NCBI RefSeq assembly: GCF_023055435.1
Contig: NW_025964334.1
Location: 46,686,001 to 46,750,000, forward strand
Direction of reading: 5' to 3'
Origin: Haliotis rufescens
Lineage: Eukaryota
Length of the DNA stretch: 64,000 nt
A model generated the notes under the pieces. It saw only the letters and a list, made by a program, of their open reading frames with translations, had not been told where the DNA came from and searched no databases. Numbering within the stretch: the first letter of the stretch is position 1; each line of letters opens with the position of its first letter. A program made the translations under genes and the position numbers. Shown piece after piece: positions 1,633-58,526 of the stretch.

Positions 1633-2583
1633 TTGTTTTGTTTTCTTGGTGGTCTGTTTGGACAATTTCATTTACAGTGGCCCGGCTGATTGCATAGCCA
1701 ACATACCCTGACCTCTTGCTCTCTCTACTTAACCGCATTAACACGTTTTGATCTGCAATCCCTAGCCCCGTGACCTGGCTTCCCGCATGAGAAACAATTA
1801 CGACGCTGACTAGCATGATCAAGGTCCATAGGCTCTTCTCGCCTCCCGCTATTCGAATCGTGCCCTCTACTATTAAAATCATGCCCTCGGTTACTCGGTT
1901 TTCCCAACCTGAGTTCGAATCTAGCCCTAATGTTTTGTTCAAGCGTGGCCAAAGCCACTGCTTCTTTGAGGGATGTGGGGTTTTCCCTCATAAGTTTTTT
2001 CTGCATGTACTCATGACATCAAGCCATCTATTAAAAAACCTATCAATTGTCTTTGGATGGGGGGATTATCTTCACCGTCCTGCCCTAATCCTTCATAAGC
2101 CTCTTCGGCCAAGTTTAGTAGTCTTTCAGCATAAATCTGAACACCCTCACTATATTTTTGTTTGACCGCCCTTAATAACATAAATGCGTGTTGTGGATCA
2201 CTAATTTCAGCAAACCTGCTCGTTAGCTCTGCCCTTAACTCCTTCCATGTTTTGGCAGGATTATCATCCATATAGCGCTGCACGAAGTAGCTTACAGAGC
2301 CATCACAACTCTGAAAAGCAATTAGCTTTTTACTGGCGTCTTGATTTGCGCCAGTTAGCAATGCATATTTTTCTACAGATTTGATCCATTTTTTTAAATC
2401 TTTCGGGTTCCCCCCAAATGTTTTTATAGCTTGATTCACCACCTGTGCACTTAGCATTGTATTTACAGCAGCTAGCCTCCCGTTTATTTCATTTCCCTGT
2501 GCCCCTAATGTTGAAGTTACTGCTGATATCTGCCCCGTTATTTCTCCCGCTAACCCTTGTAAGAATTGTGCATATTCTGCCAT
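1623..2583 (-). pseudogene. gag: Gypsy gag with two CCHC zinc knuckles, disrupted
   Basis: Capsid-like ORF (WIKSVEKYA...TWKELRAELTSRF); frameshift near 2010; first knuckle intact, second reads CWLCNQPGHCK*NC; ends GN*. Confidence 0.85.
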
Positions 2584-2697
2584 GTTGCTCACGTAGGTAC
2601 TTGCAAAAACCCAAAGAATCACCTTTTTGCGAGTCCCGGGACCAATTCCCTCGATCCTAGTCGTTTCCTGGGGTCCCTCTCCTTCGCTCCTTAAGGT

Positions 2698-2716
2698 GAT
2701 CCTGGTCTCGGCACCA
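2698..2716 (-). promoter_or_regulatory. Primer binding site, tRNA-Phe-like
   Basis: Minus strand TGGTGCCGAGACCAGGATC a few nt inside the LTR end; close to the complement of the tRNA-Phe 3' end (TGGTGCCGAAACCCGGGATC). Confidence 0.7.
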
Positions 2717-2721
2717 GTTTA

Positions 2722-3454
2722 CGTAACCCCGCTCCTTCTTGTAACACAACACAAGAAGGCGGTTTGAGGATTACGTAGTTTTAATCACAATGGCATATGT
2801 ACAAGTCAAAGGAAGTGTGCCGTTCTTCCTTCCTCCCTCTAGATACTCGCCTGTACCTTAGGGTGCTGAGACCAAGTCTGCCGGTATTTGGAAGTCGCCC
2901 GGTATATATAGTAATGATGGAATGCGAAGCATTTTGTTTTGCACAGGTACTACAGTTTGGTGTGGTCAACTTGAGATTAAATTGACCATCAAGTGGTGTC
3001 CATGACGAGGCACTTAAAATTGTTCCCCTTAAGGTGACATGAAACCACCACTCACTGGTCCACTTGATATGTAGTTGACATATCCACGGTGTCAGTCGTA
3101 TCTGGCAAACACTGATAGTGTTATGATATGTACTTGACATATCCACGGTGTCAGTCGTATCTGGCAAACACTGATAGTGTTATGATATGTACTTGACATA
3201 TCCACGGTGTCAGTCGTATCTGGCAAACACTGATAGTGTTATGATATGTACTTGACATATCCACGGTGTCAGTCGTATCTGGCAAACACTGATAGTGTTA
3301 TGATATGTACTTGACATATCCACGGTGTCAGTCGTATCTGGCAAACACTGATAGTGTTACATTAGTCGTATCTGGCAAACACTGATAGTGTTATGATATG
3401 TACTTGACATATCCACCGTGTCAGTCGTATCTGGCAAACACTGATAGTGTTACA
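2722..3454 (-). repeat. Gypsy 5' LTR
   Basis: Minus strand begins TGTAAC (3454) and ends GTTACG (2722; canonical GTTACA mutated), directly before the PBS. Confidence 0.75.
3065..3454. repeat. 59-bp tandem repeat (~6 copies) at the LTR outer end
   Basis: Unit TTGACATATCCACGGTGTCAGTCGTATCTGGCAAACACTGATAGTGTTATGATATGTAC at 3075, 3134, 3193, 3252, 3311, plus partial copies. Confidence 0.95.
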
Positions 3455-10573: not shown

Positions 10574-12195
10574 AACAAGGCTTGACAAGAACTCCTGTAT
10601 ACCCTGATCCTCAGTGACCATGGTTCAACACCATGGTTCAACACAAGGCTTGACAAGAACTCCTATATTACCTGATACTCAGTGACTACACTGTTGAAGG
10701 CCATGGTTCAACACAAGGCTTGACAAGAACTCCTGTAATACCTGATCATCAGTGACTACACTGTCCAAGGCCATGGTACAACACAAGGCTTGACAAGAAC
10801 TCCTATATTACCTGATCCTCAGTGACTACACTGTCCAAGGCCATGGTACAACACAAGGCTTGACAAGAACTCCTGTAATACCTGATCCTCAGTGACTACA
10901 CTGTCCAAGGCCATGGTACAACACAAGGCTTGACAAGAACTCCTGTAATATCTGATCCTCAGTGACTACACTGTCCAAGGCCATGGTACAACACAAGGCT
11001 TGACAAGAGCTCCTGTAATACCTGATCCTCAGTGACTACACTGTCCAAGGCCATGGTACAACACAAGGCTTGACAAGAACTCCTGTAATACCTGATCCTC
11101 AGTGACTACACTGTCCAAGGCCATGGTACAACACAAGGCTTGACAAGAACTCCTATATTACCTGATACTCAGTGACTACACTGTCCAAGGCCATGGTACA
11201 ACACAAGGCTTGACAAGAACTCCTATATTACCTGATCCTCAGTGACTACACTGTCCAAGGCCATGGCACAACACAAGGCTTGACAAGAACTCCTGTAATA
11301 CCTGATCCTCAGTTACTACACTGTCCAAGGCCATGGTACAACACAAGGCTTGACAAGAACTCCTATATTACCTGATACTCAGTGACTACACTGTCCAAGG
11401 CCATGGTACAACACAAGGCTTGACAAGAACTCCTATATTACCTGATACTCAGTGACTACACTGTCCAAGGCCATGGTACAACACAAGGCTTGACAAGAAC
11501 TCCTTTATTACCTGATACTCAGTGACTACACTGTCCAAGGCCATGGTACAACACAAGGCTTGACAAGAACTCCTACATTACCTGATACTCAGTGACTACA
11601 CTGTCCAAGGCCATGGTACAACACAAGGCTTGACAAGAACTCCTATATTACCTGATACTCAGTGACTACACTGTCCAAGGCCATGGTACAACACAAGGCT
11701 TGACAAGAACTCCTATATTACCTGATACTCAGTTACTACACTGTCCAAGGCCATGGTACAACACAAGGCTTGACAAGAACTCCTTTATTACCTGATACTC
11801 AGTGACTACAATGTCCAAGGCCATGGTACAACACAAGGCTTGACAAGAACTCCTATATTACCTGATACTCAGTTACTACACTGTCCAAGGCCATGGTACA
11901 ACACAAGGCTTGACAAGAACTCCTGTAATACCTGATCCTCAGTGACTACACTGTCCAAGGCCATGGTACAACACAAGGCTTGACAAGAACTCCTTTATTA
12001 CCTGATACTCAGTGACTACACTGTCCAAGGCCATGGTACAACACAAGGCTTGACAAGAACTCCTTTATTACCTGATACTCAGTGACTACACTGTCCAAGG
12101 CCATGGTACAACACAAGGCTTGACAAGAACTCCTATATTACCTGATACTCAGTTACTACACTGTCCAAGGCCCATATACAACAGAAGCTTGACAA
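10574..12195. repeat. 70-bp tandem satellite (~23 copies)
   Basis: Unit ACACAAGGCTTGACAAGAACTCCT(G/A)TA(A/T)TACCTGAT(C/A)CTCAGTGACTACACTGTCCAAGGCCATGGTACA; period 70 (10861 vs 10931). Confidence 0.97.
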
Positions 12196-16373: not shown

Positions 16374-19300
16374 TCAATTTCCATCCAAGAAATTGAGAGC
16401 AAATCGGAACTTGCTCCCTGTCTTCATGTCCTCCTTGGTGTATGGGTACCAGAATATAAAGTTGACATCCCAAATATTGTTGAAGAGTTGGAATGCCATG
16501 CCGTTGATGTCCTTGATTGGGGTCAGTGGTAGAGGTATTGCTGAGATGGGGTCAGCATCGGTCAACACAGTCACTATGGGAGCATCAGGGGAGACAATTT
16601 CCATGCCCTGGTTGGTGGCGCTACGGTAAAATACACCCTTGTCTATAGCTAGAAGTGGAGAAAATAATTATTAGGAAAAATAGACTTTGAATGTGTGGCA
16701 CGACCCCATTGTAACACTGTGTCCAATCATGTGATTCTGTGACTAAAGATGCTCCCTCTGGTTACCTGTATGTATTGTCTACCACGGCACAGGAGTCTCA
16801 ATGACAATAATTATGTGTATGCCTTTTCACTATAGCTGGGATGATACACCAACTGGGATACGTACCATGATTCCCTTCTCACGATCCGAGACATATCAAG
16901 ATACTTGCATGTTCTCTTATCTGTTGTGTGTAAGCCATCTCTTTCATTGACTGGACAGACAAATACTTGGCACATTGACAATTTACAGTTGGCAGTGTCA
17001 CGTATGGCATGATGGATGAACATATTTACGTTTTCACTACTAATTTCCACTACTATTTCGTGTTTAGTGTGACAATTAGTGAAGCAACCATGTAAGGTAA
17101 GAATAAAAATTCATACTTAGTGTGCGACTGTGAGCGATACTCGTATTGAGAAGTAAAAAATCATGATCTCTCCGACTGTCACTCACCATGCTGTCTCTGA
17201 CTGCCGTTGAGCACGACATTGAGTGGGTCTATGATGTGACCCAGTTTATGCAGCTGCCAGCTGTAGGCCTCTTGTTTCAGCGGCTGGAACGTGAAGAACA
17301 GCGCTTCTGGCAGTCGGGTTGGAGTCTTGTCAAACCACTGAACATCGATGTGCAAACCTAGCATGGGAATGAACCAACTGCCTAATTAGTAAGTCATCCA
17401 TAATGTTTACCGTATTCGACGTAATAAGCGCCCCGCTCTAATAAGCGCCCACGGCGATATTTGCTAATATATTGGCTAGTGAACAATCCCAATTAAATAT
17501 GGGCAATTAAATTCTGGAAAAATATATCTGTCGCATATAAACATTTCAGGCTGTCAGTATAAACAACGAAATTTATCTTTCACCAAAATAATATTCTAAT
17601 AAGAGCCCCCATATTTCTAATTTTGAGAGCGCCCTGGGCACTTATTACGTCGAATATGTTATGTTGAACTGCAATTAATCTTTGCAAGAAATGGTTGTCC
17701 AGGGTTTGCACTTGTGCATCTGTTTTATGCTGGTCACATCCTGTCGAAACTCAAACCTCCATCACTTTTACAATCCTTTTGGTTTTAGTTGACACTAAAA
17801 GTCTACACTGGACAATTAAGCAATGTTCCCTCAGTTCACCAGCCCCCAAACTGGATCAGATGTGTTCATTGTTCTATCTTGGGGTTCATTTCCCTCTCTT
17901 TCTAAGCTACTCAACCCAATACACCTATACAACAGTTCGCTGAAGCTGCATGTACCTTGAGAGTTACACAGTCTCATTTGTCTGCCTTGCGATGACAGTG
18001 AAAGAGCTGTTTCCAACTGTTTCCTTTATATACAGATATTCAATTTGCAGAACTCAAACATTTGGCTGTGTGCTCTGACAGTATATCGGATAAAAGGAAT
18101 AAGTGCCACAGCACTGTAGCTCACCTGGATATGTAGTCATTAGTTAACAGAATAAAACTAAAAAAAAAGGCTGTCAGCATTGATATTAAAATATTTTCTA
18201 CAAATATTATGAGAACTAATAAACCCACGAAAGTCATTTTGAGAGAATACAAGAGCATGGTAATACCAAGTAAAAAACCCATAAATGTTGAGCCCAACTA
18301 CCACATATGGATGAACCAAATTTCATAACATTTTGAACAAAAAATGGCTTGACAATGGCCATGAAGTCATTTCATCTGTCAGTATGGTTAAAGTGTAAAT
18401 CAATTATTTAAAAAAATTTAAATATTGCAAAAAACACTGAAGATGTGCTGAGACCCACCACCTTCTACACACATACCATTCTCATTGAACATCCCCAACA
18501 GGTTGTCTGAAGGGAATCATTGGTGGGGAAAAGCATGTGTAGTTCATTTAGAGATTCATTGGTCAAACGGTTTCCGAGGTAATGGACACACAGGCCATAA
18601 CATAAGCTCACATAACTTTAAGTCAGCTAAGCTGAAAAGGTAGATGCAAGTTAAATAGGGAGAAGCGAATCTCTATATCCTGATGAAGTACTGTCTCTTG
18701 TCCTCTATCTATTACCCAAGCAGGTCTCACCTGGAGGTAGCGCAAAATCCTCTGTCACATAGGACACCCACACTTCTGACGGGGCTCCATAATACTCGAC
18801 AGCCTTCCCGCCAGACATCCGAATATGGGCATGGAAAGAACAAGCACTTCCTAGGGGAAAAAACACAATATCTTGACCCCAGTTCAACTCCAAAGCATTT
18901 GCACCCAGTTTGAACGTTCGATGGGTGCACAGTGTAGAGTTATCCCCCTTTGACAATAATTGCAGAGAGAACTCCACTTTACATATACTGAACATGGTAC
19001 TAAAGATCATCTGGATTTGAAGTCAACAGTTTCAAATGTCAACAAAAACTAACACTGGTACAATTTGTATTCATTTTTTTCAGCATAGATACTGAGGACT
19101 AAAACAATAATGATTTGAACAAAATATGATGTCTCCATAGGGGGAAACATACATTCCAAACTTCACTTCCCTCAGTTTGGCTGTTCGTCAGCATGCCATG
19201 GCAGCCATATTGAAAAATGAATTTGGGCCATTTGGGGTGTGATCATTGGTGAGCACAAGCTTGTGAAGTCTCGATCAGCTCCATTCATCCAGAGGTTACT

Positions 19301-22060
19301 GAGGAGATGATGTTTGTGATATATATGTTAACAACATCTACCGTATGCATTGTGTTTACGACATTCGTATCCTGGAGAGTGACCTCCCCTGAATAAACGT
19401 TTTCACACCACATGACATTCATCATGTTAGTCGCATATGTTACAATGTTTACAGTTACAGGGCTACCGGGTGGCCACACTGAAATTAAATTGTGATGCCT
19501 TGAACTAACTTGAACTCGAAATCTAGAAAGGTTAAGGACGCTGCTGATGCCAGATAATGGACGACTTATGACCTGAAAGGCCATGAGAGCAAACAAGTTA
19601 ACGATTAGTGAGGACATGATCCATTGATGTGACTAAGTGAGTAAGTGCACATACAAGAGTCATTCTTCAAAATGCAAGCAGTGCTCAGACTTTACCATTT
19701 TGTTTACAACATGACACGTGACATCCAGAGAGTCTAGTGCTGCTGAACTGTTTGGTGACACACTTATAATGTGACACACTAATAATGTGACACACTTATA
19801 ATGTGACATACTTATAATGTGACACTAATAATGTGACACAATAATAAAGTGTCACACTAATAATGTGACACACTAATAATGTGACACACTCATAATGTGA
19901 CAAACTAATAATGTGACACACTAATAATTTGATACACTTATAATGTGATACACTAATAATGTGACACACTAAGAATGTGACACAATAATAATGTGACACA
20001 CTAATAATTTGATACACTTATAATGTGATACATTCAAATGTGACACACTTATAATGTGACACACTTATAATGTGACAAACTAATAATGTGACACACTAAT
20101 AATGTGACACACTAATAATTTGATACACTTATAATTTGATACACTAATAATGTGACACACTAAGAATGTGACACAATAATAATGTGACACACTAATAATT
20201 TGATACACTTATAATGTGATACATTCAAATGTGACACAATAATAATGTGACACACTAATAATGTGACACAATAATAAAGTGACCCACTAATAATGTGATA
20301 CACTAATAATGCAAACAGTAGAAGCTTTTGTTAACGTGCGCCATGTACATGTTCAGAAGCTTGCAGAACCAGAAGAAAAACAGTTTGCATCTATAACTTA
20401 ATGAACCAGAAGTGATGAAGTGGCTTAACTGAGCTCTGTAACAGTATGGATTACATATATATGGCAATCTTTAACTGGTCACCAAAATGAAATAATCCAA
20501 TTGTTAACATTGTGGCTACATCAGTACTTGATTCTGATTAGTCAATCAGAGGTTGTCAATCACAATGTACCCCCTTTGATTGAAACAGCTATTTGACAGC
20601 CTCATCACCGTGGAAGGTAATATTAATAGAATAGTACTTTTTTCAGTCATTGTCGGTAGGCATACTTAAATAATTATATCAACAATTATAGGTTACAAAA
20701 GACAATATTTAAAGGATGTGTGGCTATACATTTTGTGCAGAAAATATCTATTTTAAGTTTTGAGGAGAACAGAGAGCTTGGTATTTGGTGCTTTTCTATA
20801 TACAACTGTGATGTCATATCTTTTGCGTCACAATGTGCGATATGACGTTATAACGGTGATGTGTGGTGTACAACGAAAGCTTTGCAACGATTGCTTTGTT
20901 TTCTTTACATGCTTCAGGCGTTCCCACCTCATGTTAGCTTACTAAGTTGCTGTGCTTATATGCTTTCAATGGCTATCATGTGTTCGAGTGAAGTATTACC
21001 ATGTAAACAAACTGCTTGAGTATATAAAAAGCCATAGTTTGTTTAAAGGCTGTTGTCGGTGATTCCGTAATTCAGATCGACAACCCACTCAAAACACTGC
21101 GCGTTCGGTTCCAAATTCAATTTAGCGTGCTTAAATCTACATGTAACCTAGCTCTACATCGAAAATACAGTATGTTAACCTCCATTCTACCATGTCCACT
21201 CAAATCCCATCAACAGAATTTCACAAAAGTTATTTGGGGTAGCACCTACTTTGCCAGTCCCTGTCTTTATGTAGCATATGGAGTTTAGTTCACTTAGAAA
21301 ACTGACAAATGGGAGCGTGATAATAGGTTTGGAGACAAAGTAAGGAAATGTACAACTTTATGGATAAAAACTGCTGGTTTGTTGCATATAGCGACGTTAT
21401 CAAGCTGGAGCTAGAGCACTGAGTTATCGCAATATGCAACAAATCAGAAGTTGTTATCCATAAAGTCGTACATTTTCTTATTTACTCACCAATTTCAAGA
21501 AAGCCAATGAAACAGTTATATAGATAAGGTGATGAAAAACTGTCATTATTCTGCTTTTTCTTGCCAAATATCTAAAAATCATAAAAACAACCATAGAGCA
21601 GTTTTTGGATTATCGCGTCTTATTAGTTTTTTCATATGTTGAACAGTTTGACGAGTCAGCGTTTGATATCGACCAATGCATGATCGCAAAAAGGGAAACA
21701 TCTTGGTATTTTCAGTGTTAATAAAAACATCAATGTCTGTGGGTATAACATGAATAATATGCACCTCCTTCTACACAGAGGTTGTATCAGACAAAACAAT
21801 ACAGATGCACATATACATTTCCAGTCTCAGTATGGGGTCCCATAAGATTTATTACAGATTGGTCCAGGGATGCGGGATGAGGGATGCTTATAGGAGTTGG
21901 CTATAATGGGGTGAGAGCTATGAAGGAGTTAAGGGGGTTTCACCCCTTCTCTTAACAATGTGGAATACAAAAGGGAGTTAGCAGGGCCAGCAATCGGTAA
22001 AGTACATCTCTCACATTATTTTAATCACAAATATTCCCAATTCAATTGACACCCTTCTGA

Positions 22061-22126
<66 letters not shown>

Positions 22127-25100
22127 CTGGTAGCTACCTGCAATCCTGTAGACATCTATCAGCTGGGTCGGCCACACCCGGCTCTCTGCGTCTGAGTTGT
22201 TGGTCATGTTGGGCTTTCCAATGCCCAGCCATGAGACACCGGGCTGGTACGTCGCGAAGAAATTGTCAAAGTCTGTCTGGTTGTATGTCTGATACACCAG
22301 CTGCCCCAGTGGGTTTGTCTTGCTGGCCCAGTTCAACTGTGGATCACATGTAAACATACATGAGGAAACTCAGTCATTTAAGGGTATCAATATCAGCCAA
22401 ATCTGACATACGGGATGAGCTTATTATTTCCAAAGTTCATTATTCACATGGGTAATAACGATGATTGCCACTCATGTCTTTAAAATTGTTTTCACTATAT
22501 CTGACATTTTGCTCCATCAAACTTGTCATCAGGTGATATACAAGTCTTGGGAAAGGAGTTTTTGTTTATGAATATAATGATTTGTAGTAAGTTTAATCTT
22601 CCTACCATACCAGATAATGTGTTCATTAATTAAAACTGAAGTCTTCTTAAATATTGATATTTGAAATCAGGAAGCACCATATTAGAATTGTTGGCCTGCA
22701 CCCCCAGAATCAGCTCTAAGGACTGGGAATGAAAATTCTATCTGTCAGAGAACCAATTTCTAAAATTCTTTCACAGGTAACAGATACATTTTTCTGACAT
22801 AAACAAGATATAAACAAGATATAAAAACAAGATATAAACAATACTTCTAGTTTGTATGACAACACATCCCTGTGTGTATCTAGTAATGGAATGGTTATCA
22901 AGGTACATCATGGCTCCCTATCTCACTACAACAGCACCATACACTCACCTTGGTATATGGGTCAGACAGTGTGCTGAGCGCCCCATCAGCCCTGAACCCA
23001 AACTTGTAGCCGTTCTCACAACTCTGTATAGATGTAGGGTCAGACAGCTTGCTGTAGCCTGCAGAAACAACATCACATACCGGTACTGAACCCAGAACAT
23101 GAAGCCGTTCTCACAACTCTGTATAGATGTAGGGTCAGACAGCTTGCTGTAGCCTGCAGAAACAACATCACATACCGGTACTGAACCCAGAACACGAAGC
23201 CGTTCTCACAAATCTGTATAGATGTAGGGTCAGACAGCTTGCTGTAGCCTGCAGAAACAACATCACATACCGGTACTGAACCCAGAACATGAAGCCGTTC
23301 TCACAACTCTGTATAGATGTAGGGTCAGACAGCTTGCTGTAGCCTGCAGAAACAACATCACATACCGGTACTGAACCCAGAACACGAAGCCGTTCTCACA
23401 AATCTGTATAGATGTAGGGTCAGACAGCTTGATGTAGCCTGCAGAAACAACATCACATACCGGTACTGAACCCAGAACATGAAGCCGTTCTCACAACTCT
23501 GTATAGATGTAGGGTCAGACAGCTTGATGTAGCCTGCAGAAACAACATCACATACCGGTACTGAACCCAGAACATGAAGCCGTTCTCACAACTCTGTATA
23601 GATGTAGGGTCAGACAGCTTGATGTAGCCTGCAGAAACAACATCACATACCGGTACTGAACCCAGAACATGAAGCCGTTCTCACAACTCTGTATAGATGT
23701 AGGGTCAGACAGCTTGCTGTAGTCTGCAGAAACAACATCACATACCGGTACTGAACCCAGAACACGAAGCCGTTCTCACAACTCTGTATAGATGTAGGGT
23801 CAGACAGCTTGCTGTAGCCTGCAGAAACAACATCACATACCGGTACTGAACCCAGAACACGAAGCCGTTCTCACAACTCTGTATAGATGTAGGGTCAGAC
23901 AGCTTGATGTAGCCTGCAGAAACAACATCACATACCGGTACTGAACCCAGAACACGAAGCCGTTCTCACAGCTTTAGTTTAATTGTGGTCACCCACACTA
24001 TGATTTATACAAGCCCATCAGTACACCACGTAAACACAGAGGCCTCCGCAAGTAGCACAGGCTGAGAAGTCAGCTACTGGAAGGTATTGTTCTGAGGGAG
24101 TACGTTGTTGTTGTCTCCCTGCTTACTCTCCCTACTATCATTATACCAACCAGAATGTCACTATACCTGCCAGACTGTCACTATACCTGCAGACTGTCAT
24201 TATACCTGCCAGATTGTCACTATACCTGCCAGACTGTGACAATACCTGCCAGATTGTCACTATACCTGCCAGATTGTCACTATACCTGCCAGATTGTCAC
24301 TATACCTGCAGACTGTCACTATACCTGCCAGACTGTGACAATACCTGCCACATTGTCATTATACCTGCAGACTGTCATTATACCTGCCAGATTGTCACTA
24401 TACCTGCCAGACTGTGACAATACCTGCCAGACTGTCACTATACCTGCCAGATTGTCACTATACCTGCCAGATTGTCACTATACCTGCCAGACTGTGACAA
24501 TACCTGCCAGATTGTCACTATACCTGCAGACTGTCATTATACCTGCCAGATTGTCACTATACCTGCCAGACTGTGACAATACCTGCCAGACTGTCACTAT
24601 ACCTGCCAGACTGTCACTATACCTGCAGACTGTCATTATACCTGCCAGATTGTCACTATACCTGCCAGACTGTGACAATACCTGCCAGATTGTCACTATA
24701 CCTGCCAGATTGTCACTATACCTGCCAGATTGTCACTATACCTGCAGATTGTCATTATACCTGCCAGACAGTCGCTATACCTGCAGCCTGTCATTATACC
24801 TGCCAGATTGTTACTATACCTGCCAGACTGTGACAATACCTGCCAGACTGTCACTATACCTGCCAGATTGTCACTATACCTGCCAGACTGTCACTATACC
24901 TGCCAGATTGTCACTATACCTGCCAGACTGTCACTATACCTGCCAGACTGTCACTATACCTGCCAGACTGTCACTATACCTGCCGGACTGTCACTATACC
25001 TGCCGGACTGTCACTATACCTGCCAGACTGTCACTATACCTGCCAGATTGGGCTTGCTGGCCTTCAACATGTCCCATTCCGACTTCACCTCAGCCATGAG

Positions 25101-28100
25101 AGGGTTCACATCGAGGGCGTCCAGCGCCGTGTACGCAAACTGTCGCTGCTCCACCCATGACGAGATGCCGTCCAGGAAATGCTGGTCTGAAGGAGAAGGA
25201 CATATCACCATGACAACTGTGTGGTATGGACTTCATTCCACCCCTGTCATCTCTGATCATAAACCATTTTGTTGTACAACTGAAATGAACATTGTTAGAA
25301 AATAACAGATCAGAACACTGTGAACCTGTACATCTTAAAGGCACCATAGCTGGAATCATCCATACTGTGTTTCAGCTTCATACACCTTCTAGTTTCAGAT
25401 GAGATGTTTAAAATGCAAAAGTTAATGACAGATGGACAAGTGTTCGCATTTCGTGCCCTTTGACAAAATGTGACAGTCCTTCACTATATCATATCACATT
25501 ATCAATGTTGGCCTGAGTTTTGAAATGTGAACAGTTATTTGTCAAAAAGCATAAAGGTGATTTGTTTTTAAGTCCTGAAATTTGGTATAAAACATAACCC
25601 TCATGAACATTGATAAAATGATGTCTAGAGTCTACACATCCAAACTCGAAAGGTTCTACTTTGATTGATGGAAACTATCTTGTGATTTTCATGGTAACTG
25701 GTTGCATTATTACCTTTGAGCTTCATGGCATTAATAAATCGGACATTTGTCCAGTTGAACTGGTCAAAGACACTACTAAGTCCACACGTGTGTTCCCCCA
25801 TCTTGAGGAGGAACCTGCTGGAGTTGTAGAAGGCGGGGTCAGACAGCGAACACACTGCAAGAGAGGAGAGTCGCACTGATATAGTTCAAATGTTTAGTTT
25901 CCAGTGCAGCTCATGTCCTTTGCTGTCAGCATTGCTATTGAAGTCGGACAAAAGTATTAAAGGATGATTGAAAAGACTACAAATTGAGCATTTTTCTTAC
26001 ATAATGTCATTCAAACATGAATTTATACCAAATCTGCATAATTGAATTTTGAAAATAATTTGTAATAATTGTAATTATGCTCCTAAACCTACAACACTTT
26101 AGCCATGCCCACTTGTATGCATATTTATCTTTTTAGCAGTAGGGTTTATGTGGCTGTGATGTTATACCAGACATTCTGCTTTGTGTTGATCATTCGTGTT
26201 TACGGTATCGACTGGAAAGTGAAGAAAAGTGCCATATTTTGAATGGAGTTGCAGTGACAATATGCTGTATTGGGTGCACTTCCAGTGCTACAAATACTTT
26301 TGGCCTTCATTTTCATGAATTTCCCTGCGATCTGCCAAAACGTAAGCTATGGCTGGCATATTGTCAACGTGCTGATGTCAAACTCAAAGACATAAGCAAA
26401 TACAGCATGTGATGCTCCTTACATTTCTCAAAGAAGAATTATGAAGGGGATCCAGAGTTCATGGCACAATATGGCTACATGAAAGCTTAACCCAAGCTTT
26501 TTAAGGATGCTGCACAGGACATTTCCCTGGCTATCAACGGCACGAGCAGGAATAAGGTCACGAACAGTGCTAGGTTCACCAAGAGGGGGCATTTCAGAAG
26601 CGATAACCGTTAGAACAAATAGAAGTGAGTGAAGTAGATATGATCTTGACAGACAATATTAAGTTTTATGATATTACTTGCTCGCTTGAACCTCTCACAG
26701 TTTGCATTTCCTGAGTTTGTTGGTGTAGATCGATTTTACTGTACTTTTTCAAGGATGTCTTAGGTTTTGGCAGTGGGCTTGTCATTCATTAGAGATTGGG
26801 CATTCCTTTTACATACACTAGTTGCAAGGTTGTTTGGTTCTTAAATAAATAGAACTGTCATAATTGTTTATGATTTATTTTTTGTAAAATTAATTAAAAT
26901 GTGAAATAAAATCATGAAGTCTAAATTAATTATTCCCGGTTTTAGGATTTGAAAGGAGCATATGATAGTTTTAAAGCAACATTTCGACAGGCGATTATGC
27001 TTGTATGAGGCGACTAACGGGATCAGGTGGTCAGACTCGCTGACTTGTTTGATGCATGTCATCGTATCCCAATTGTGTGTATCAATGCTCATGATGTCAA
27101 TCACTGGATTGTCTGGTCCAGACTCAATTATTTACAGACCGCTGTCATACAGCTGTAATATTGCTGAGTGCGGCGTTAACCAACAAACAAACAAACTTCA
27201 ATATCCATTAATAGCAATATAAAGTATGTGTAGTAACTTTTTAAAAAATCCTTTAACAAATTGAAACAAGTAACTTAATATCCGCTATGTATCTAAATCT
27301 GTAACAATGTATTGTTGTAGGAAACTGTGTGAAATAGACAACAGCTAAATACAAACTCTGAGCCTTACATATACCACTAAAAGAAAGTTAATGACCTATT
27401 CAAGGATTAAAAGTCTCTCTATTCAAGGATAAAAACTCATCCTATTCAAGGATTAAAAGTCTCTCTATTCAAGGATTAAAAGTCTCTCTATTCAAGGATA
27501 AAAAGTCATCCTATTCAAGGATTAAAAGTCTCTCTATTCAAGGATAAAAAGTCATCCTATTCAAGGATTAAAAGTCTCTCTATTCAAGGATAAAAAGTCA
27601 TCCTATTCAAGATTAAAAGTCTCTCTATTCAAGGATAAAAAGTCATCCAATTCAAGGAATAAAAGTCTCTCTATTCAAGGATAAAAAGTCATCCTATTCA
27701 AGGATTAAAAGTCTCTCTATTCAAGGATAAAAGTCATCCTATTCAAGGATTAAAAGTCTCTCTATTCAAGGATAAAAAAAGTCATCCTATTCAAGGATTA
27801 AAAGTCTCTCTATTCAAGGATAACAAGTCATCCTATTCAAGGATTATAATTCTCCCAATACAAGGATTATGAGACATAACATTCTTCTCAGGAACCTTAC
27901 CTTTCCCTGCCAGACATTTTGTACGCGCACGGAGGAAAGCTCTCATTTCCGCTACTTTCCGTGGATCAGACCCAGCTCCCTGTATCCAGGTGTCTCCGAT
28001 CTCCTTGGTAACCACAGGAAGTTGGGCCTTGACACTCTGTGCGGCCTCCACAAATGCCTCAAAAGTAGAACCCTGGACTTCTGCATTTGGGAAGATTGCC

Positions 28101-31100
28101 CTCGAAATCTCAAAGTTGGATAACACTTCCTGGAAAAAAAATAAAACATTGCAACATCATGTGCAAAGCTGAACAGTCCACTGTGCTGGTGCTGAACCTT
28201 CTTGGTGACAATTGCAAACACAGCAGGCTTTGAATGTGTTTATGAGTAAGTGTGTAGTACCATCATCATACCAAGTTCATATTATAACAATCACAATGGT
28301 TTACAGATCTTTTCTTGAACAAAAAGCAGGAAAAAGATCAAAATATATATAAATTAATAATTTTGAAAGCTTGTTTATTTTTATAGTGTTAAACAGAAAT
28401 TATTGTTGTTTGGGTGAAAGAAGAACATTTTTCTTTACTGAATTTCAATAAACAATATGATGGGAATAAAAATAGACTATTCTCTTTGTTCCAAATCCAC
28501 ACCTTGTGGAACCATCAGTCAAGTAATTAAAGTAAAACAACCAGTGAAATTCACCTTCACAGTTTCCGGTGGTCCCGAGTTGTCAGTGCGGAAAGCAAAG
28601 CACATGGCGTCCGCCAGCCCGGGGAATATGACACAGTTATCAGCCGACAGCCCACCGGGGTTGGCGGGGTTTGGACCTGGGTTCTGTGGGTATCCGACTG
28701 AAACAGACTCTTCAGTTGTAACGTGAAAATGAAAGAAATGAGCACTGAGGGTGAAGACAAAGGGTGTTAACAAGCTAATAACTGTACACTGGAAACAGTC
28801 CTTGTTTCCAAATTTACTTAATTGTTTTAATCGGAGTTCCAACACAAACACAAGGAAAAAAGTGAGCAGGGCTCACTAATACCGCGACATCGACTCCAAC
28901 ATAGTTCTATGTTCAAAACACACACAAAAAAGAAAAAGAATTCTCAGAAAATCCACTTATCAACATCAAACTGTGAACTGCATCTCTTCTATTTGTATGG
29001 AAACTGTTCCCTAAATTTAAAAAGAATCCATACAGTAGTTTTCAAGTTTTATTAAAAAGTAAAAGCATTCTTAGCAAAAAAATGAAAAATAGCTGTATTT
29101 TTATTTTTCATAAAATACACATATCAAAATCCATGTACTAGTTCTCAAGATACAGGTCACACAAATGATTGTAAAAATATACAAATATTGAAATCAACCT
29201 CTGCACTGCACCTTCCCTATTGGCATAGATAGTGTTCAGGAAGTTTGAAAAAAATCTATGCAGTAGTTTTCAAGATATAGGTCGCACACAAAAAATGTCA
29301 TCGGAAGGATGGACGGACGGATGGGTGGATGGACAGAGGTCCTTGGTATAACTATGTATCCCCACCCTTTTAGGTCGAGGGTATAACAAAACAGGACTGA
29401 GACAATAATCAAAATGCATAGATTGATTCAAGGTAACAATAAAAAATAAACAAAAATGCGTAACATATATGTGATGTCTGATGAAAATTAAATGCGCAAA
29501 GCAAAATTATCACATTTGATACTGGTGTTGAAAGAATAGGACTCACAAGGGTTCCACATTCCAATGACACTTGCGCCCTGGAACTCCCATCGGAAGATCT
29601 TGGGGACAGCCGGGGGAGCTGACATGGGGTTGACCCCCACCGATACAGCAGCTATACCATGCTGAACGAGCAGAGGCAGCAAGGCTTGAGTCATACCTGC
29701 AAATACAGAGTGAGGTCAGAAACAGTAAGATCATCAAACACAGAGTGAGGTCTGCAAATACAGAGTCAGGTCAGAAACAGTCCAGTCATCAAACACAGAG
29801 TGAGGTCTGCAAATACAGAGTGAGGTCTGCAACCTGAGTGAGGTCTGTTAATACAGAGTGAGGTCTGCAAACACAGAGTGAGGTCAGAAACAGTGAGGTC
29901 ATCAAACACAGAGTGAGGTCTGCAAACACAGAGTGAGGTCTGCAAACACAGAGTGAGGTCAGAAACAGTGAGGTCATCAAACACAGAGTGAGGTCATCAA
30001 GACAGAGTGAGGTCTGCAAATACAGAGTGAGGTCTGCAAACACAGAGTGACGTCAACAAATACAGAATGAGGTCTGCAAAATACAGAATGAGGTCTGCAA
30101 ACACAGAGTGAGGTCTGCAAACACAGAGTGAGGTCTGCAAATACAGAGTGAGGTCAGAAACAGTGAGGTCATCAAACAGAGTGAGGTCTTCAAATACAGA
30201 GTGAGGTCTGCAACACAGAGTGTGGTCAACAAATACAGAGTGAGGTCTGCAAACACGAAGTAAGTTCTGCGACGCAGAGTATTTTGGAGGGCTACCAACT
30301 ACCTGTCATTTCTCTGACAGACAATGGGAACCTCCTGACAATGCAAAGTGTTTAGTGTTAGGATGTTATAGATTTGGGTGGGGAGGGTGTGTTGTGTGGT
30401 AGGTTTGCCATTTTAGAAGATAACCACCCATCTGACTCATCCCTGACTGACTGTTCAGAATAGAAGACAACCACGCACCCGGTACATCCCTCTGACTGAC
30501 TGTGGGGAACTTCCTGACAATGCCTAGACGTTTATCCAGGTCCTGTCCTAGCTGAAGCCCAAACTCCACCATAGCAGTGTCCAGCATCTCAAACTGCATG
30601 TTCATCGGTCCAGCATGCCAGCTGATGTCCCCCAGCTGAGCAGCAGCCACAAAATCTGACACAGCGTCTTCACCTGGGCACTGAAAGGAAGGCTATGACT
30701 CATGACAACTGGGGGTTTACAACTGTCATGATGACAATGGTGTGGCAGACACAAGTGTTAACATACAGTTTTGTTGTACATATGTTTTATCTATTTGAGG
30801 TCTGTAATATTATTTTAAGTTGTTAGTAAAGTAGGTTCTTAGTTCAATATCTATTGTGGGCTTCTGGATTAGTTTACTTATAATGTAGAGGGTGGTTGGG
30901 TTGGTCCTAGACTGTCTTACAGACCCGATACAAATATATATGAAATACAGCCCATGCAAGTCTATGGTGTTTGGCAAGTCTAGACTACTGCAGTATCTGA
31001 AAATGAAGAGAGTCACTGGGCTCCCTTTTATTACATTTTTATTAAGATAACTGAACAACTGTTTTTCTGTACAATATGTTCATTTCAGAGACTAGATGTT

Positions 31101-33918
31101 AGTCTAGGGTTGGTCCATGTTTGTATCATTGTTTCTTCTCTTGTTCTAACCCAAGCCTTGATTTCATTGGCTTGTTCAAACTGTGCACTTTTCATCCATC
31201 TTGCACTAGACACTACACCATTTCAGAAGTCAGTCAACAATTTGGACTTGGACGCATCTTGGATAAATAATTCGATTGAAACCTAATTTTATGCATAATT
31301 CTCCCTGATAGAGGCAAACATCTCCATGAAACTAAAGACCCCAATACCCTCTGACAATTGATGGCAATGGGATCAACCTCATACACTAGTCAACAAGGGT
31401 TGGACACAAGGTCAAAGGTACCAACAGTTCCTCATGTTCACATTAAAGCACAAGGATGTGAGTTATCAAAGCATATCCAGGGCAAGTATTCAGTTCCTAT
31501 AGGACCAGCACATGCATATTCCTCACTCACCTGAATATTAGCGGTACCTGCCCCTGCTACTGGGCCTCTGATGATGTGCAAACAAAACTCACACTTAAAA
31601 AAAGGGTTTCCTTGTTCTGTTAGTTTCTTTAACAAGATAGCTATGAAACAACATTAACTGGCTTACAAGTCCCTTCAATGTACAGACTAGCATACTGACT
31701 CAAGCACATGTATCCCCATTCACTATTGGTTTAACTTCTAGCATGATTGGTCTTGATGTGACTCCCAATAAAATCTTGATACCATTCAGTTTTCCAAATC
31801 ATTGTTGCAGAAAACTAGAGATGTTAGCCTTAGGAATGTACCTTAAATACTTCTGGCAACACAGTTGCTTTAAACTACTCTATTGTCAAGTGAAATGATT
31901 GAAAAAAAAAGAAATTTTAACAATGCCCAGCTTTGTCGAACTGTCAGAGTTCGAGTTAAGACAATATATAGCCATGGTTTAAATGGTTGAGTGAATTTGG
32001 TTTTACCCTGACATTTCAGATATCATGGCACTTCAGTTTGATGTAAGAAAGTCCAAAGTGATGCAGGTGTCAGACATTTACCTTACTGACATCAGGTAAC
32101 ATACTCTATGGTGCTGACAAGCCGGGGATCAGGGATTAGAATCATGGTCACAGGCTCCCGGCATGCCTCACACAACAACTGTGATTTGAAGCCTTGCATG
32201 ACTGGGAACCCATGTCCCCTCCATGGTCCAAGTTTGTTTGTTGTTTAACGCCACACTCAGCAATATTCCAGCTATATGACGGCAGCCTGTAAATAATCGA
32301 GTCCGGACCAGACAATCAAGTGATTGATATCATGAGCATTGATCCACGCAATTGGGATATGATGACATCCATCATCCAATTTAACAAGCCTGACCAACTG
32401 ATCACGTTAGTCGCCTCTTACAAGAAGCATGGGTTACTGAAGACCTATCCTAATCCGGATCTTCACAGGCCCCATGGTCAAAGAAGGCCTACACATTACA
32501 TCATCATACACAATGTTAACCCTGCACTCAGTGTACATGTGCCATCTTCAAATATTACAGTTACCAAGATATGTAAATGTGCAGTGATATCACAGCATGT
32601 CAGATTCATGAGGGAGGGCCCGAAGTGATGCAGGTGTCAGTCATTTACCTTACTGACATCAGGTAACATCCACTATGGTGCTGACAAGCCGGGGATCAGG
32701 GATTTGAATCATGGTCACAGGTTCCCGGCATGCCTCACACAACAACTGTGATTTGAAGCCTTGCATGACTGGGAACCCATGTCCCCTCCATGGTCCAAGT
32801 TTGTTTGTTGTTTAACGCCACACTCAGCAATATTCCAGCTATATGACGGCAGCCTGTAAATAATCGAGTCTCGACCAGACAATCCAGTGATTGATATCAT
32901 GAGCATTGATCCACGAGTACATGTATGATGCTGACAAATCAAGAAACATCATCAGGGTAAACATGAAATTCGAATTCATGATAACAGGTTTCTGGCACAC
33001 CTAACTCTGCACAGCAATTGTGGGCACAATTGTCGAAGCAATAGATGATCTATTCATGGCATGATGAAAAGTTTAAAAAAATTAATTTAGTACATTCATC
33101 TACGGCATCCTTCATAGATATAAAATAAGAAGATAAATACCAAAAGTGTTATAGGGGTTGGGGAGTTGGGGAATTAATGTGTGGGGGCCACTTACCTGCA
33201 GTACAATTCCCGACAGGTTCAAGTTGGGGGGACAGTCCAGATAGAGACTGACCAGCCAGGGGTGGGTGGTGTACACTAGTCTCTCCAAATATCCCTCTGA
33301 ACGTAGTTGCCGTGATACATTGACTGCTCGGGGAAAATATACTGTGAAGTACCGGTTGATGACATTGTTGACAAAACCCAGTGTGGGGAAAATACCGTTG
33401 TAACCAACATCTGAAGTAACAGACATTTCATTAATCATTTTACAGGTTTCCACAATGTTGTATTGATCCATCAAATACAAAATCTGCATACATGCAAAAT
33501 CACAATTGTCAATGTCACAAATCAAAAGAGATTAAAAACTGTGTACAATGTGCTTGTTCTTGGCATTCAACAAGTTTTGGTTTTGTCTGGTAAAACTGGT
33601 CTTAAGAACAACTCAAAGTACATGGAGATTGTCAGCATGAACTAGCTTTCACTGTTGTCATGATGGTTGCTATCGAGTCTTCTAGGGGGACCAGTTGTTC
33701 TTGTCCAGAGGACAGATATAATTCTAATTTTTTTAAAACCCTAGGTTAGATTCAGTTTATGACAGTTACTTGTACCCATACGTACCAAGATGGTTCATGA
33801 ATAGAAGGTGAAGTCTCTTGACATGTGTAGTGTTAGTTGATTGGTCAGCTGTGTCCAGGCTGGCGGTACACGCCACACCGACCACGCTCCCCCACACCAC
33901 ACCAAGCACCTGCAACAT
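16374..33918 (-). CDS. DUF5054-like putative glycoside hydrolase (GH38-like N-terminal barrel), ~744 aa, 13 coding exons, probable signal peptide
   Basis: Exons (-): 33918-33786, 33410-33196, 30680-30479, 29696-29547, 28697-28555, 28129-27901, 25854-25714, 25186-25040, 23058-22949, 22336-22138, 18850-18731, 17357-17187, 16648-16374. All GT-AG, phases match, 2235 nt open. Motifs FMNHLDVGY, YTTHPWL, ISWHAGP, SQRDVPG, SVGVNP, TDNSGP, LPVVTKEIGDTWIQG.GSDP, EHTCG, KTPTRLPEA, LFNNIWDVNF. N-terminus MLQVLGVVWGSVVGVACTA. Confidence 0.88.
17410..17660. mobile_element. pogo/Tc1-type MITE with CCGTATTCGACGTAATA TIR; longer copy at 44254-44597
   Basis: TA|CCGTATTCGACGTAATAAGCGCCC ... GGGCACTTATTACGTCGAATATG; the two copies are collinear. 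Confidence 0.85.
19755..20310. repeat. 16-bp minisatellite AATGTGACACACTAAT (~34 copies), intron 10
   Basis: Direct inspection. Confidence 0.95.
21345..21480. mobile_element. Palindromic Penelope-like inverted terminal repeat remnant
   Basis: CTTTATGGATAAAAACT...TTGTTGCATAT / ATATGCAACAA...AGTTGTTATCCATAAAG; same arm motif as 54580 and 57688. Confidence 0.5.
22063..22124. repeat. (TA)n microsatellite ~14 nt from the exon 10 donor
   Basis: Direct inspection. Confidence 0.97.
23008..23970. repeat. 95-bp tandem array (10 copies) containing the exon 9 splice acceptor and exon start
   Basis: CTGCAG at 23059, 23154, 23249 ... 23914; period 95. Confidence 0.97.
24141..25048. repeat. 19-20-bp tandem array (~45 copies) containing the exon 8 splice donor
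   Basis: Minus-strand unit CTGGCAG|GTATAGTGACA(G/A)T; first unit is the real exon end AAT CTG GCA G|GTATAG. Confidence 0.97.
27394..27850. repeat. 23-bp dimeric (46-bp higher-order) minisatellite in intron 6
   Basis: Alternating TATTCAAGGATTAAAAGTCTCTC / TATTCAAGGATAAAAAGTCATCC. Confidence 0.95.
28848..29388 (-). mobile_element. Degenerate Helentron-like non-autonomous element
   Basis: Core repeats ending GTAGTTTTCAAG; (GGAC/GGAT)n microsatellite; terminal TATCCCCC...GAGGGTATA inverted repeat; GTGAGC..GCTCAC hairpin at the other end. Confidence 0.5.
29697..30255. repeat. ~20-bp tandem array containing the exon 4 splice acceptor
   Basis: Minus-strand unit ACCTCACTCTGT(A/G)TTTGCAG; real site CCTCACTCTGTATTTGCAG|GTATGA. 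Confidence 0.93.
30908..31106. mobile_element. ~200-bp non-autonomous DNA transposon, TAGACT..AGTCTA termini, 10-bp TSD (AcademH-like)
   Basis: TSD GGGTTGGTCC at 30898-30907 and 31107-31116; copies at 47389-47596 and 58787-58975. Confidence 0.75.
32057..32915. repeat. Local ~290-bp duplication of a composite of two SINE fragments (32057-32350 / 32623-32915)
   Basis: Both copies run AAGTGATGCAGGTGTCAG...CCCCTCCATGGTCCAAGTTTGTTTG...GATCCACG. Confidence 0.85.
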
Positions 33919-45000: not shown

Positions 45001-48000
45001 TGCTGTAGCAACAACGAGAGAGGCCTCCACTGTGACTGATCAAATTGTTAAATGTAAAACATATCCGGCAATTGTAAGATATCAGTTGTTCCAAAATGCT
45101 ATGCTTATGGTTATTATTATTTTAAATATATACAGTAAACATTGCAACTGAAATAACTCGATTAAATAATAAATAATAAAATAATAGTTTCAGATACAAT
45201 TTATCCGATCGTTGCATCAAAATTCTTTGAAGTTATATTTATTGGGTATTTTGTTACCAAATCACCGGTTGATTGGGAGAAAATATGCGTAGAGCTGATT
45301 GCTATTTCTGGCTTAGTTTTTTAGAAAATAAACGTTAACAATGGAATATATAATGCACTAAATGTAAATGTTTAAACAAGTATTATAGTTAAAATGGATA
45401 GAATTTTCATAAAAAACAATGCAAATGTAACTTGATAGCAGTCCACTTTCCCCTAACGACGGGCTGCTTAGCAATCTATCCAATGACGTCACGTTTCTTG
45501 TTTGTGACGTCATCCTATATTATGTTCTGGAACGTTGCTATTTGTAACTCAGTGACCTCCCCTGTAAGCTTTTTTTCTCTATACTATTAAAATCACAAAT
45601 ATAGTTTCTATAAACATTAATGTCTTGTAATGCGCATCACAATTAATGATATTAAAACACAAAACAGTGTCGATTAAGGAATTTCTATACCCGAATTTGA
45701 CAAAATTATAGTCCATAATAAGCAAATTTTGAATCCACGAAGAAAAAGCCAATCCATATTTCAATACTTTCAAAGTTGTTGTGTGGTTTCCCTTTAACTA
45801 GCCTAAAGCATGACTGTATGGCAGAGTTGGCTGTATCTACAATTCGAAACAAAGTGCCCTTTGCAGGCAAATTATTTTGTAAAGGTTAGGGATATTGTTG
45901 TATGTTACTATTTTCTTAAACATGTATGGATTTTCTTAGCCTTGTCATCAAAACGTCCTGGCTCAAATGTTTTTATTCCTGTTTTTGTCAACTTTTTTCA
46001 AATTGAATATGTCCACAGTGTGTATGTGTATGTGGCTATACATGCACATTGTTTCCTGTTTTACAAATTTGGTTGGTAAGGAGGGAGATATACTTGCATA
46101 GAGATGCTTTGAGAGTCAGAAATGTATCACAGATATGCCTGGGACAATCTCATTATAATCAAATCTTTTATTATGATAACAATCCCTCCATAGAACATCT
46201 TCCTGAGGTAAGGGAGTTAACTGACTAGGTATATCCTGAGTCCAGTTTCCACCCTTGCCAAACTAGGCTGGAATTAAGGACTAACGAGTCTATGCATAGT
46301 CCAGTCAAAATCGCGTCATGAACTCAACATCGCGCTTTGTAAGCTGCCATGCAGAATTTGGTTGATTGCAGGATTTTCAAAGCATATGTACCGCAAACTC
46401 GGGATTAACGGATATTTCCCAAATATTTTCATGTTTTTAAACAAGGTGCTAGTTCGGCAAAGGTGGAATTGGTATTATAGTCAGTTGACTCCCTTGCCTC
46501 TTCTAATTTCTCTAAACAAGTGACCAGCATATCTGATTTCTATAACTTGAAAATGAAGCTAATTGATCAGTGCTACATGTAAATAATAAAGGCTGAGCCA
46601 TGTATTTTCTGGACATTATGGTACCATGGCATGAACACCAAAAGCGAATACCATCAAAGGAATATTTGTCTTCTGTGAGGCTTATCTCTTATTAAAATCA
46701 CATTTCCCGGAATGCAGTGGAAAAGAAATGAAGCCGAATCATTTTCGAAAGCAGACATCTGATTGGCTCAAGAACTCACTCATCCTTAATTCAGACTGAG
46801 CAGACTAAGTTCACTCATGGTTCTGATGTGACCTATGGAAGTTGTCTGACAGGTATTGCATTGGAGTAAGATACATGATTGTAATGATCCTGGTGTCTAG
46901 GAACTCAAGAATTACACATACCATCTCTTCACATTAAAAAGCTTTCCAAGACATTTTCTGAATTCTCTTTTAGTTTTTTTATATTCAGTAGGTAAATAAT
47001 CCTTTTTCAGAACATACTATGTTCCTGAGCTACGAAACGATAATGGTCACTTCCTGTACACAGTGATAAAAGAAGACAAGGTGTATGTGGAGACCGAGTT
47101 TGAGGTGCTGAGTACCAACAAGTTTGACCAGGTAATGCGGGGCTCGAGATAAGCTGCATATCTGTGTGAAATATGCAAAATAAATCCCTGTTACCTTAAT
47201 AATTCTGAGCTGCTTGCATACCAATACTCAGAGAGAAAAGTTAAAACTTCAATATATTATCACAACACTGTAATTTACCGTAATACCCAATAAAGCCTTT
47301 TCTGTTATCATTACGCAATATTTATACTGTTTTGTTGTACCAAAACACCCGTTGTGTATGTTTGCATCTTCTTGTTTACCCTTTTATTTAGACTAACATC
47401 TCGTCTCTGAAATGAACAATTCGTACAGAAAAAAACAGTTGTTCAATTATCTTAATACAAATATAATAAAAGGGAGCCCAGAGACTCTCTTCATTTTCAG
47501 AAACTGAAACTGCAGTAATCTAGACTTGCCAAACATTATAGACTTGTATGGGCTGTATTTGATATATATTTGTATCAGGGTCTGTAAGACAGACTACCTT
47601 TTATTATTATTATATAGAGTCTCATGGAGCCTTGTGACTTTAACTTTGATGCTGCATGCATCCAGTAAATCCTGGCTGACTCTATCTGTTGTCAAGTGTT
47701 GTGGCTGACTCTATCTGTTGTCAAGTGTTGTGGCTGACTCTGTCTGTTGTCAAGTGTTGTAAACTGACTCTATCCATTGTCGAGTGTTGTGGCTGACTCT
47801 ATCTGTTGTCAAGTGTTGTGGCTGACTCTTTCTGTTGTCAAGTGTTGTGGCTGACTCTATCTGTTGTCAAGTGTTGTGGCTGACTCTGTCTGTTGTCAAG
47901 TGTTGTGGCTGACTCTGTCTGTTGTCAAGTGTTGTAGACTGACTCTATCCGTTGTCAAGTGTTGTGGCTGACTCTATCTGTTGTCAAGTGTTGAGGCTGA

Positions 48001-58497: not shown

Positions 58498-58526
58498 TTT
58501 GATTTTAGTACGCTATGTCACGTGAC
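58492..58526 (-). promoter_or_regulatory. Palindromic GTCACGTGAC E-box (CLEAR/USF type) and YY1-type AAAATGGCG at the BTB gene start
   Basis: GTCACGTGAC 58517-58526, ~20 nt upstream of the ATG. Confidence 0.55.

What the first reader, a model, noticed from the sequence alone, without database searches (positions are those of the whole stretch)
24141..25048. ~45-fold donor array in which essentially every unit is a fused CAG|GTAT site
Units read CTGGCAG|GTAT(A/T) or CTGCAG|GTATA, an AG directly followed by a GT donor, which is the architecture of recursive-splicing ratchet points and of proto-splice sites in intron-gain-by-duplication models (established concepts). Variation falls mostly outside the CAG|GTAT core. 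Read-through hits a stop at 25014 and the second donor frameshifts, so internal donors are unproductive. Units lack a polypyrimidine tract, which argues against true recursive splicing.
Basis: partly seen in the sequence, partly recalled or inferred. Interest (0 to 1): 0.7.

Follow-up and report, generated by a model that had tools for sequence, protein, structure and literature searches.

The report
Splice-donor minisatellite in abalone intron
A 20-base piece covering the end of one exon of an abalone gene and its splice signal is repeated about 45 times into the next intron; the assembled RNA we could examine uses only the first, true signal, so it is likely a harmless example of a repeat type already known from human and lancelet genes.

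Summary
The array is real: 46 minus-strand GGTA sites spaced 19-20 bp apart, 45 of them reading CAG|GTAT. It starts at the true donor of a coding exon (25186-25040) of an abalone DUF5054 gene. The unit is 11 nt of exon end plus 9 nt of intron start, so the fused AG|GT is an ordinary donor copied in tandem; 8 of 11 true donors of this gene also read AG|GT. Spliced contigs leave the exon at donor 1 in 7 of 7 runs laid, and 4 of 4 show the direct join to the next exon. These contigs may come from a related abalone. Three of three paralogs have the same intron without a junction array, so the array did not create the intron. Core conservation is borderline here and absent over 7 pooled arrays (18 events, 18.6 expected). 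It is a junction-spanning minisatellite like human F7 intron 7 and lancelet "mirages". I found 4 more at 216 sampled exon ends, and the scan has noted this kind before in this and other genomes. Ordinary; interest low.

The parts
24134..25050 (-). 20-bp donor-spanning minisatellite, about 45.5 units, 12 unit types, with recurring runs of types (higher-order structure)
25031..25050 (-). Founding unit (inferred): last 11 nt of the exon (25050-25040) plus first 9 nt of the intron (25039-25031)
   Evidence: exon end and distal edge printed; unit types
25040..25186 (-). Coding exon of the DUF5054 gene (aa 411-460 of P0010); its donor is donor 1 of the array
   Evidence: tblastn 100% to P0010; spliced contigs
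25038..25039 (-). GT of the donor that is used (phase-1 intron)
25014..25016 (-). In-frame TAG met on read-through; included by every donor from unit 3 onward
23059..25039 (-). Host intron, 1,981 nt: donor array, about 164 nt of unique spacer, acceptor array. Same position and phase in 3 of 3 paralogs
22992..23970 (-). 95-bp acceptor-spanning minisatellite (10.3 copies, 10 acceptor sites) at the other end of the same intron; unit is about 27 nt intron plus about 68 nt exon-like sequence; the last acceptor is used
22949..23058 (-). Next coding exon (begins GC, not GT), joined directly to 25040 in spliced contigs
29697..30270 (-). 20-bp array copying the pyrimidine tract and AG of the acceptor at 29696 of the same gene; 16 of 29 units keep the AG
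16374..33909 (-). Host gene: 750-aa DUF5054 (PF16477) protein, 13 exons mapped (the start codon probably lies in a further upstream exon that I did not map)

Best explanation
This is a minisatellite whose 20-bp unit is the end of a coding exon plus the start of the following, much older intron; spliced contigs use the first donor, and the 44 further copies are likely silent, near-neutral decoys. Shown: the unit's anatomy, the first-donor junction in contigs, and the same intron in paralogs. Inferred: birth by tandem duplication of the 20-bp junction segment, then expansion by slippage and unequal exchange, which spread a few early variants to many units. Also inferred: the exon-proximal donor wins by exon definition or 5'-to-3' selection, as tested for human F7, and rare use of later donors would give stop-containing RNA that is probably degraded.
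For: The exon's last 11 nt equal the 3' part of the commonest unit type, and the distal edge ends in a 9-nt intron-start copy followed by unique intron. Contigs of 4 of 4 runs cover 25039-25186 and then leave the genomic sequence; the mean depth of bin 25000-25079 equals 41/80 of each contig's depth, so nothing lies on 25000-25038 (my arithmetic). In 4 of 4 runs the loose end behind the next exon is the end of this exon; run X9's 2,292-nt contig places the two exons at record 1261-1408 and 1404-1517, a direct join. P0010 (named Haliotis rufescens) matches this exon at 100% and reads NLAGYSK across the join. Three paralogs have a phase-1 intron at the same codon and no array at that donor. Unit types recur in runs such as DCI. 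Pooled over 7 junction-spanning arrays, splice-core positions took 18 distinct changes against 18.6 expected, and in L131 only 9 of 35 units keep GT. Human F7, LMNB2 and PDGF junction minisatellites use only the authentic donor (PMC1557585, introduction).
Against: Contigs drop rare variants, so low-level use of donor 2 or 3 is not excluded; human IFI 6-16 and CBS use two pseudo-sites (PMC1557585). The contigs differ from the window at 3-4 of 114 and up to 8 of 200 letters in the two downstream exons, so they probably come from another allele or species; whether those animals carry the array is untested. In this array alone the core is more constant than expected if the distal unit is dropped: 0 of 11 changes in 7 positions, P=0.009 uncorrected, 0.04-0.10 once the run may lie anywhere. 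Array edges lie within 30 nt of exon ends more often than in my null (9 of 216 against 2.65, P=0.002), which pure chance birth does not explain.
Confidence: 0.87

Rival explanations
1. Leaky or regulated decoys: internal donors are used at a low rate that scales with array length, and the resulting stop-containing RNA tunes expression; or the repeated cores bind U1 and help the first donor.
For: All 44 internal sites match the U1 consensus as well as donor 1 (6 of 9 positions). The core is unchanged in 44 of 44 non-terminal units. Human 6-16 and CBS arrays use nearby pseudo-sites (PMC1557585).
Against: No contig on 25000-25038 in 4 of 4 runs (weak, contigs only). Core constancy is not significant after correction and is not shared by other arrays. 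No unusual RNA fold: z=+1.11.
Confidence: 0.08
2. Recursive-splicing ladder: the intron is removed stepwise at the internal AG|GT sites.
For: An AG directly precedes each GT.
Against: Ratchet points are single, well-conserved acceptor-donor pairs in long introns with a cryptic exon of about 50 nt (PMC8605326, passages). Here the intron is 1,981 nt, sites are 20 nt apart, the pyrimidine fraction is 0.43, there are 1.25 extra AGs upstream on average, and there are 0 CTRAY motifs (38 looser TRAY). Paralogs splice the same intron (about 1.4, 2.8 and 9 kb) without such an array.
Confidence: 0.02
3. Intron gain by tandem duplication of an exonic AGGT segment (Rogers model).
For: The unit holds AGGT.
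Against: The model needs a duplicated exonic segment with AGGT used as both donor and acceptor (PMC3443670, passages), so the next exon would start like the unit. It starts GC. Nine of the unit's 20 nt are intronic, and 3 of 3 divergent paralogs have the intron at the same codon and phase.
Confidence: 0.01
4. Assembly artefact or inflated copy number.
For: No independent DNA of the array was seen; a metagenome scan for the junction found 0 matches (uninformative).
Against: 12 distinct unit types in a structured order, a degenerate distal edge, no N near the array, and similar arrays throughout the genome.
Confidence: 0.02

Closest known systems
Human F7 intron 7 37-bp VNTR, and the LMNB2, PDGF, CBS and IFI 6-16 cases listed with it (PMC1557585; part 1 of 6 and further passages read)
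   Same: The first monomer spans the exon-intron boundary, so the donor is repeated down the intron; the most upstream site is the one used.
   Different: Shorter unit (20 bp against 37-100 bp for the three whose unit size is given) and more copies (about 45 against 5-25 in the cases listed). The same intron also carries an acceptor-spanning array. Length polymorphism and minor-site use are untested here.
Lancelet 'mirages' in Adh3, globins BflGb6/BflGb9, troponin C and PGBD5 (PMC3087553 and PMC3902484; passages read)
   Same: Minisatellite-like tandem duplications of 5' or 3' exon-intron boundaries in a marine invertebrate; reported units 10-160 bp; regular splicing not disturbed; edge units less homogenised.
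   Different: A gastropod host. Donor and acceptor mirages face each other in one 2-kb intron. Somatic instability, reported for Adh3, is untested here.
Drosophila ratchet points (PMC8605326; passages read)
   Same: Juxtaposed AG|GT.
   Different: No working acceptor context, short intron, 20-nt spacing, not present in paralogs.
Intron gain by tandem genomic duplication (PMC3443670; passages read)
   Same: Tandem duplication of an AGGT-containing segment.
   Different: The segment straddles an existing junction and no new intron results.

Membership tests
Junction-spanning minisatellite (F7-type, 'mirage') | Head-to-tail array of minisatellite-size units | tested here: met
   20 bp x 46.0, 89% matches
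Junction-spanning minisatellite (F7-type, 'mirage') | Terminal unit spans a real exon-intron boundary | tested here: met
   Exon mapped by tblastn and by spliced contigs; unit is 11 nt exon plus 9 nt intron
Junction-spanning minisatellite (F7-type, 'mirage') | Splice site reiterated in the intron | tested here: met
   45 of 46 sites read CAG|GTAT
Junction-spanning minisatellite (F7-type, 'mirage') | The exon-proximal authentic site is the main one used | tested here: met
   7 of 7 runs laid, 7 studies. Contigs only, and possibly from relatives whose array state is unknown
Junction-spanning minisatellite (F7-type, 'mirage') | Copy-number polymorphism or instability | not testable with these tools
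   One assembly only; no DNA reads were laid on the array
Recursive-splicing ratchet point | Juxtaposed AG|GT | tested here: met
Recursive-splicing ratchet point | Credible 3' splice-site context upstream of the AG | tested here: not met
   Pyrimidine fraction 0.35-0.53, extra AGs, 0 CTRAY
Recursive-splicing ratchet point | Mostly in long introns, well conserved, followed by a cryptic exon of about 50 nt | tested here: not met
   1,981-nt intron, 20-nt spacing; absent from 3 of 3 paralogs
Recursive-splicing ratchet point | Intermediates or lariats at the site | not testable with these tools
   Only assembled contigs were available
Intron gained by tandem genomic duplication | Duplicated segment is exonic and its AGGT supplies both donor and acceptor | tested here: not met
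   The acceptor used belongs to a different 95-bp unit and the next exon starts GC
Intron gained by tandem genomic duplication | Intron absent from relatives | tested here: not met
   Same codon and phase in 3 of 3 paralogs; orthologous gene structures in other species not tested

The most novel reading that the evidence does not exclude
The 45 intact CAG|GTAT cores are kept by selection: the array is a U1 landing strip or a length-tuned leak into nonsense-mediated decay. Abalone minisatellites pile up at exon ends (about 3-fold in my sample) because splicing itself seeds or retains them, which would give thousands of natural tests of splice-site choice.
Probability: 0.07. Interest if true: 0.6.

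Novelty: new member of a known kind. Interest (0 to 1): 0.17.

Why it matters
As it stands, little. It is one more junction-spanning minisatellite, at the high end for copy number and the low end for spacing among the cases I read about. Its use is as a natural reagent: 44 equally strong donors 20 nt apart, plus 9 decoy acceptors in the same intron, would test first-donor and last-acceptor selection in a mollusc. The survey matters more than the locus. About 2% of sampled exon ends (4 of 216; 95% interval 0.5-4.7%) carry such an array, which would mean thousands genome-wide (extrapolated), and array edges are enriched near exon ends.

Tried and rejected
Core conservation as a sign of function. 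In this array: 2 of 14 distinct changes in the core with all 45 units (P=0.08); 0 of 11 without the distal unit (P=0.009, or 0.04-0.10 after allowing for choice of the run after the fact); AG|GT alone P=0.09-0.20. Pooled over 7 arrays: no effect. Dispersed repeat or transposon origin of the unit: 7 exact pattern matches, all local (exact matches only). RNA structure hiding the decoys: z=+1.11. Exchange with the exon: units 1-6 are not the exon-like type, so no sign of it here. Metagenome scan for the junction: 0 matches, uninformative. No run was on record as RNA and none had raw reads; the contigs are taken as RNA because they join exons. The first lay included a high-copy dispersed repeat that crowded out the loose-end table. 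The AMP-binding search gave only long, apparently intronless matches and was not used. Strictly straddling arrays (4 of 216) exceed the null only with a narrow window: P=0.02 for 5-30 nt, P=0.28 for 5-70 nt. Literature searches for an abalone description found none by title: 2 listed, not read; 0; 12 of 81 listed; one search returned 0. No supplements were read; they could list such arrays in abalone genome papers.

Full report
Observation. TRF reports period 20, 46.0 copies, 89% matches at 24134-25047. On the minus strand 46 GGTA sites follow each other at 19-20 nt; 45 read CAG|GTAT and the distal one reads TTG|GTAT. The read-through stop is at 25016-25014 and donor 2 adds 20 nt. A 31-nt pattern of one and a half units has 7 exact matches in the 1.33-Gb genome, all within this array.

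Host gene. An upstream exon used as query found 9 proteins with Pfam PF16477 (DUF5054), the best from Haliotis at 96%. tblastn of P0001 and P0010 maps 13 exons on the minus strand between 33909 and 16374. P0010 is named Haliotis rufescens, matches the exon at 25186-25040 at 100%, and reads NLAGYSK across the next junction. It is an annotation, not an experiment. The array therefore begins at the true donor, 25040|25039.

Anatomy. The exon's last 11 nt are the 3' part of the commonest unit type (15 of 45 units), and the distal edge ends with a copy of the first 9 intron bases before unique sequence. So the unit is 11 nt of exon plus 9 nt of intron. The fused AG|GT needs no special explanation: the mammalian donor consensus is MAG/guragu (PMC1557585), and 8 of 11 true donors of this gene read AG|GT, 4 of them CAG|GT. 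The other end of the same 1,981-nt intron carries a 95-bp array with 10 copies of the acceptor and the start of the next exon. A third array copies the pyrimidine tract and AG before 29696. That makes 3 of the 24 intron ends mapped in this gene.

Which donor is used. 19 of 24 listed runs hold the exon, all as assembled contigs, none on record as RNA. I laid 7 of the 19, from 7 studies. In 4 of 4 runs a contig covers 25039-25186 and then leaves the genomic sequence; in three of them it also joins the upstream exon. The mean depth in bin 25000-25079 is 41/80 of the contig depth in each run, so nothing lies on the first two units. In 4 of 4 runs the letters beyond the next exon are the end of this exon, so 25040 joins 23058 directly: first donor, last acceptor. 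Two limits apply. Contigs drop rare forms. And the contigs differ from the window at 3-4 of 114 and up to 8 of 200 letters in the two downstream exons, so they probably come from another allele or species, whose array I could not see.

Is the core conserved? Variants are shared by descent (12 unit types, recurring runs), so I counted distinct changes, not units. With all 45 units, 2 of 14 fall in the 7 core positions (4.9 expected, P=0.08). Without the distal unit, 0 of 11 do (P=0.009); an invariant run of 7 or 8 somewhere in the unit has P=0.10 or 0.04. To go beyond one array I took 108 short Pfam-anchored exons: 80 fetched as 10-kb stretches and 28 loci. I chose them by eye as short matches among the 289, leaving out long, apparently intronless ones. 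They cover 893 kb with 167 arrays. Four arrays span the junction (L121, L129, L131, L189). Pooled with the window's three, each without its distal unit, splice-core positions took 18 changes against 18.6 expected. In L131 only 9 of 35 units keep GT, and in the array before 29696 16 of 29 keep AG. The cores are not generally protected.

How common. 4 of 216 exon ends is 1.9% (95% interval 0.5-4.7%). Match ends only approximate exon ends, and some are not junctions. Array edges lie within 30 nt of a match end 9 times against 2.65 for randomly placed pseudo-exons (P=0.002), and 12 against 5.2 within 60 nt. Without P450 loci it is 7 against 1.66 at 140 ends. Strict straddling alone is not clearly above the null (P=0.02-0.28). 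The enrichment is modest, the null is simple, and I cannot explain it.

Not intron gain, not a ratchet. The duplication model needs an exonic AGGT segment used as both sites (PMC3443670, passages). The next exon starts GC. Three paralogs in the genome have a phase-1 intron at the same codon, about 9, 1.4 and 2.8 kb long, with no array at that donor. One of them is closer to the scallop protein than to this gene, so the intron is likely very old. Ratchet points are conserved acceptor-donor pairs, mostly in long introns, with a cryptic exon of about 50 nt (PMC8605326, passages). The internal AGs here have a pyrimidine fraction of 0.43, extra AGs upstream and no CTRAY motif. The first units fold no better than shuffles.

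Mechanism. Shown: unit anatomy, first-donor junction in contigs, shared intron position. Inferred: one tandem duplication of the junction, then slippage and unequal exchange. Taken from the literature: in human F7 the downstream copies can function, but only the most upstream intact site is chosen (PMC1557585; part 1 of 6 and passages read). By analogy the abalone decoys are silent, and any leak would carry a stop; decay of such RNA is recalled general knowledge and was not tested.

Comparison and verdict. It works like, and meets the testable defining features of, F7-type junction-spanning minisatellites and lancelet mirages (PMC3087553, PMC3902484; passages read). It fails the tests for ratchet points and for intron gain. 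My searches found no paper on such arrays in abalone. Earlier scan notes report the same kind in this genome and in worms and sea urchins; they are unchecked and not counted as support. New member of a known kind; interest 0.17.

Noticed in passing
window 22992-23970 and 23006-23008 (-): All 9 internal copies of the 95-bp acceptor array read a Phe codon where the window's exon, P0010 and P0001 have Tyr. Contigs of 4 of 4 runs and the H. asinina and H. rubra proteins have Phe, so the copies seem to keep an older version of the exon. Each unit also holds a donor-like site 22 nt before its acceptor.
   Followed up: partly
window 47673-48635 (+): 29-bp array (32 copies) whose degenerate last unit runs into an acceptor of a DUF1349 gene; a further junction-touching array in the window.
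   Followed up: partly
window 27396-27869 (-): 23-bp array beginning about 30 nt after the donor at 27901; it does not include the donor.
   Followed up: no
L135 5156-5540 (gene-sense coordinates) and L206 5748-6374: Two intronic arrays whose units carry a pyrimidine run followed by CAG|GTRTG, better ratchet-like sites than the present array; one starts 13 nt after a kinase donor.
   Followed up: no
L131 5049-6228 (gene-sense coordinates): 32-bp donor-spanning array in a DEAD-box helicase gene in which most units have lost the GT (9 of 35 keep it).
   Followed up: partly
G000 sample, L111-L190 and 28 further loci: Minisatellite edges are about 3-fold enriched within 30 nt of exon ends; cause unexplained.
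   Followed up: partly
window 10575-12195 (-): 70-bp array (23 copies) with a CAG|GTAAT motif in most units, about 4 kb downstream of the DUF5054 stop codon; no neighbouring exon was identified.
   Followed up: no
G000:C556:20.33-20.36 Mb, C594:7.96-7.98 Mb, C594:12.31-12.38 Mb: Three divergent DUF5054 paralogs, so at least four family members in this genome. The family's function is unknown.
   Followed up: partly
window 52000-58500 (-) and 60800-62300 (+): A BTB-domain gene and a GFO/IDH/MocA oxidoreductase gene.
   Followed up: no
window 1-2900 (-): Looks by eye like a fragment of an LTR-retrotransposon gag-pol region; not tested.
   Followed up: no
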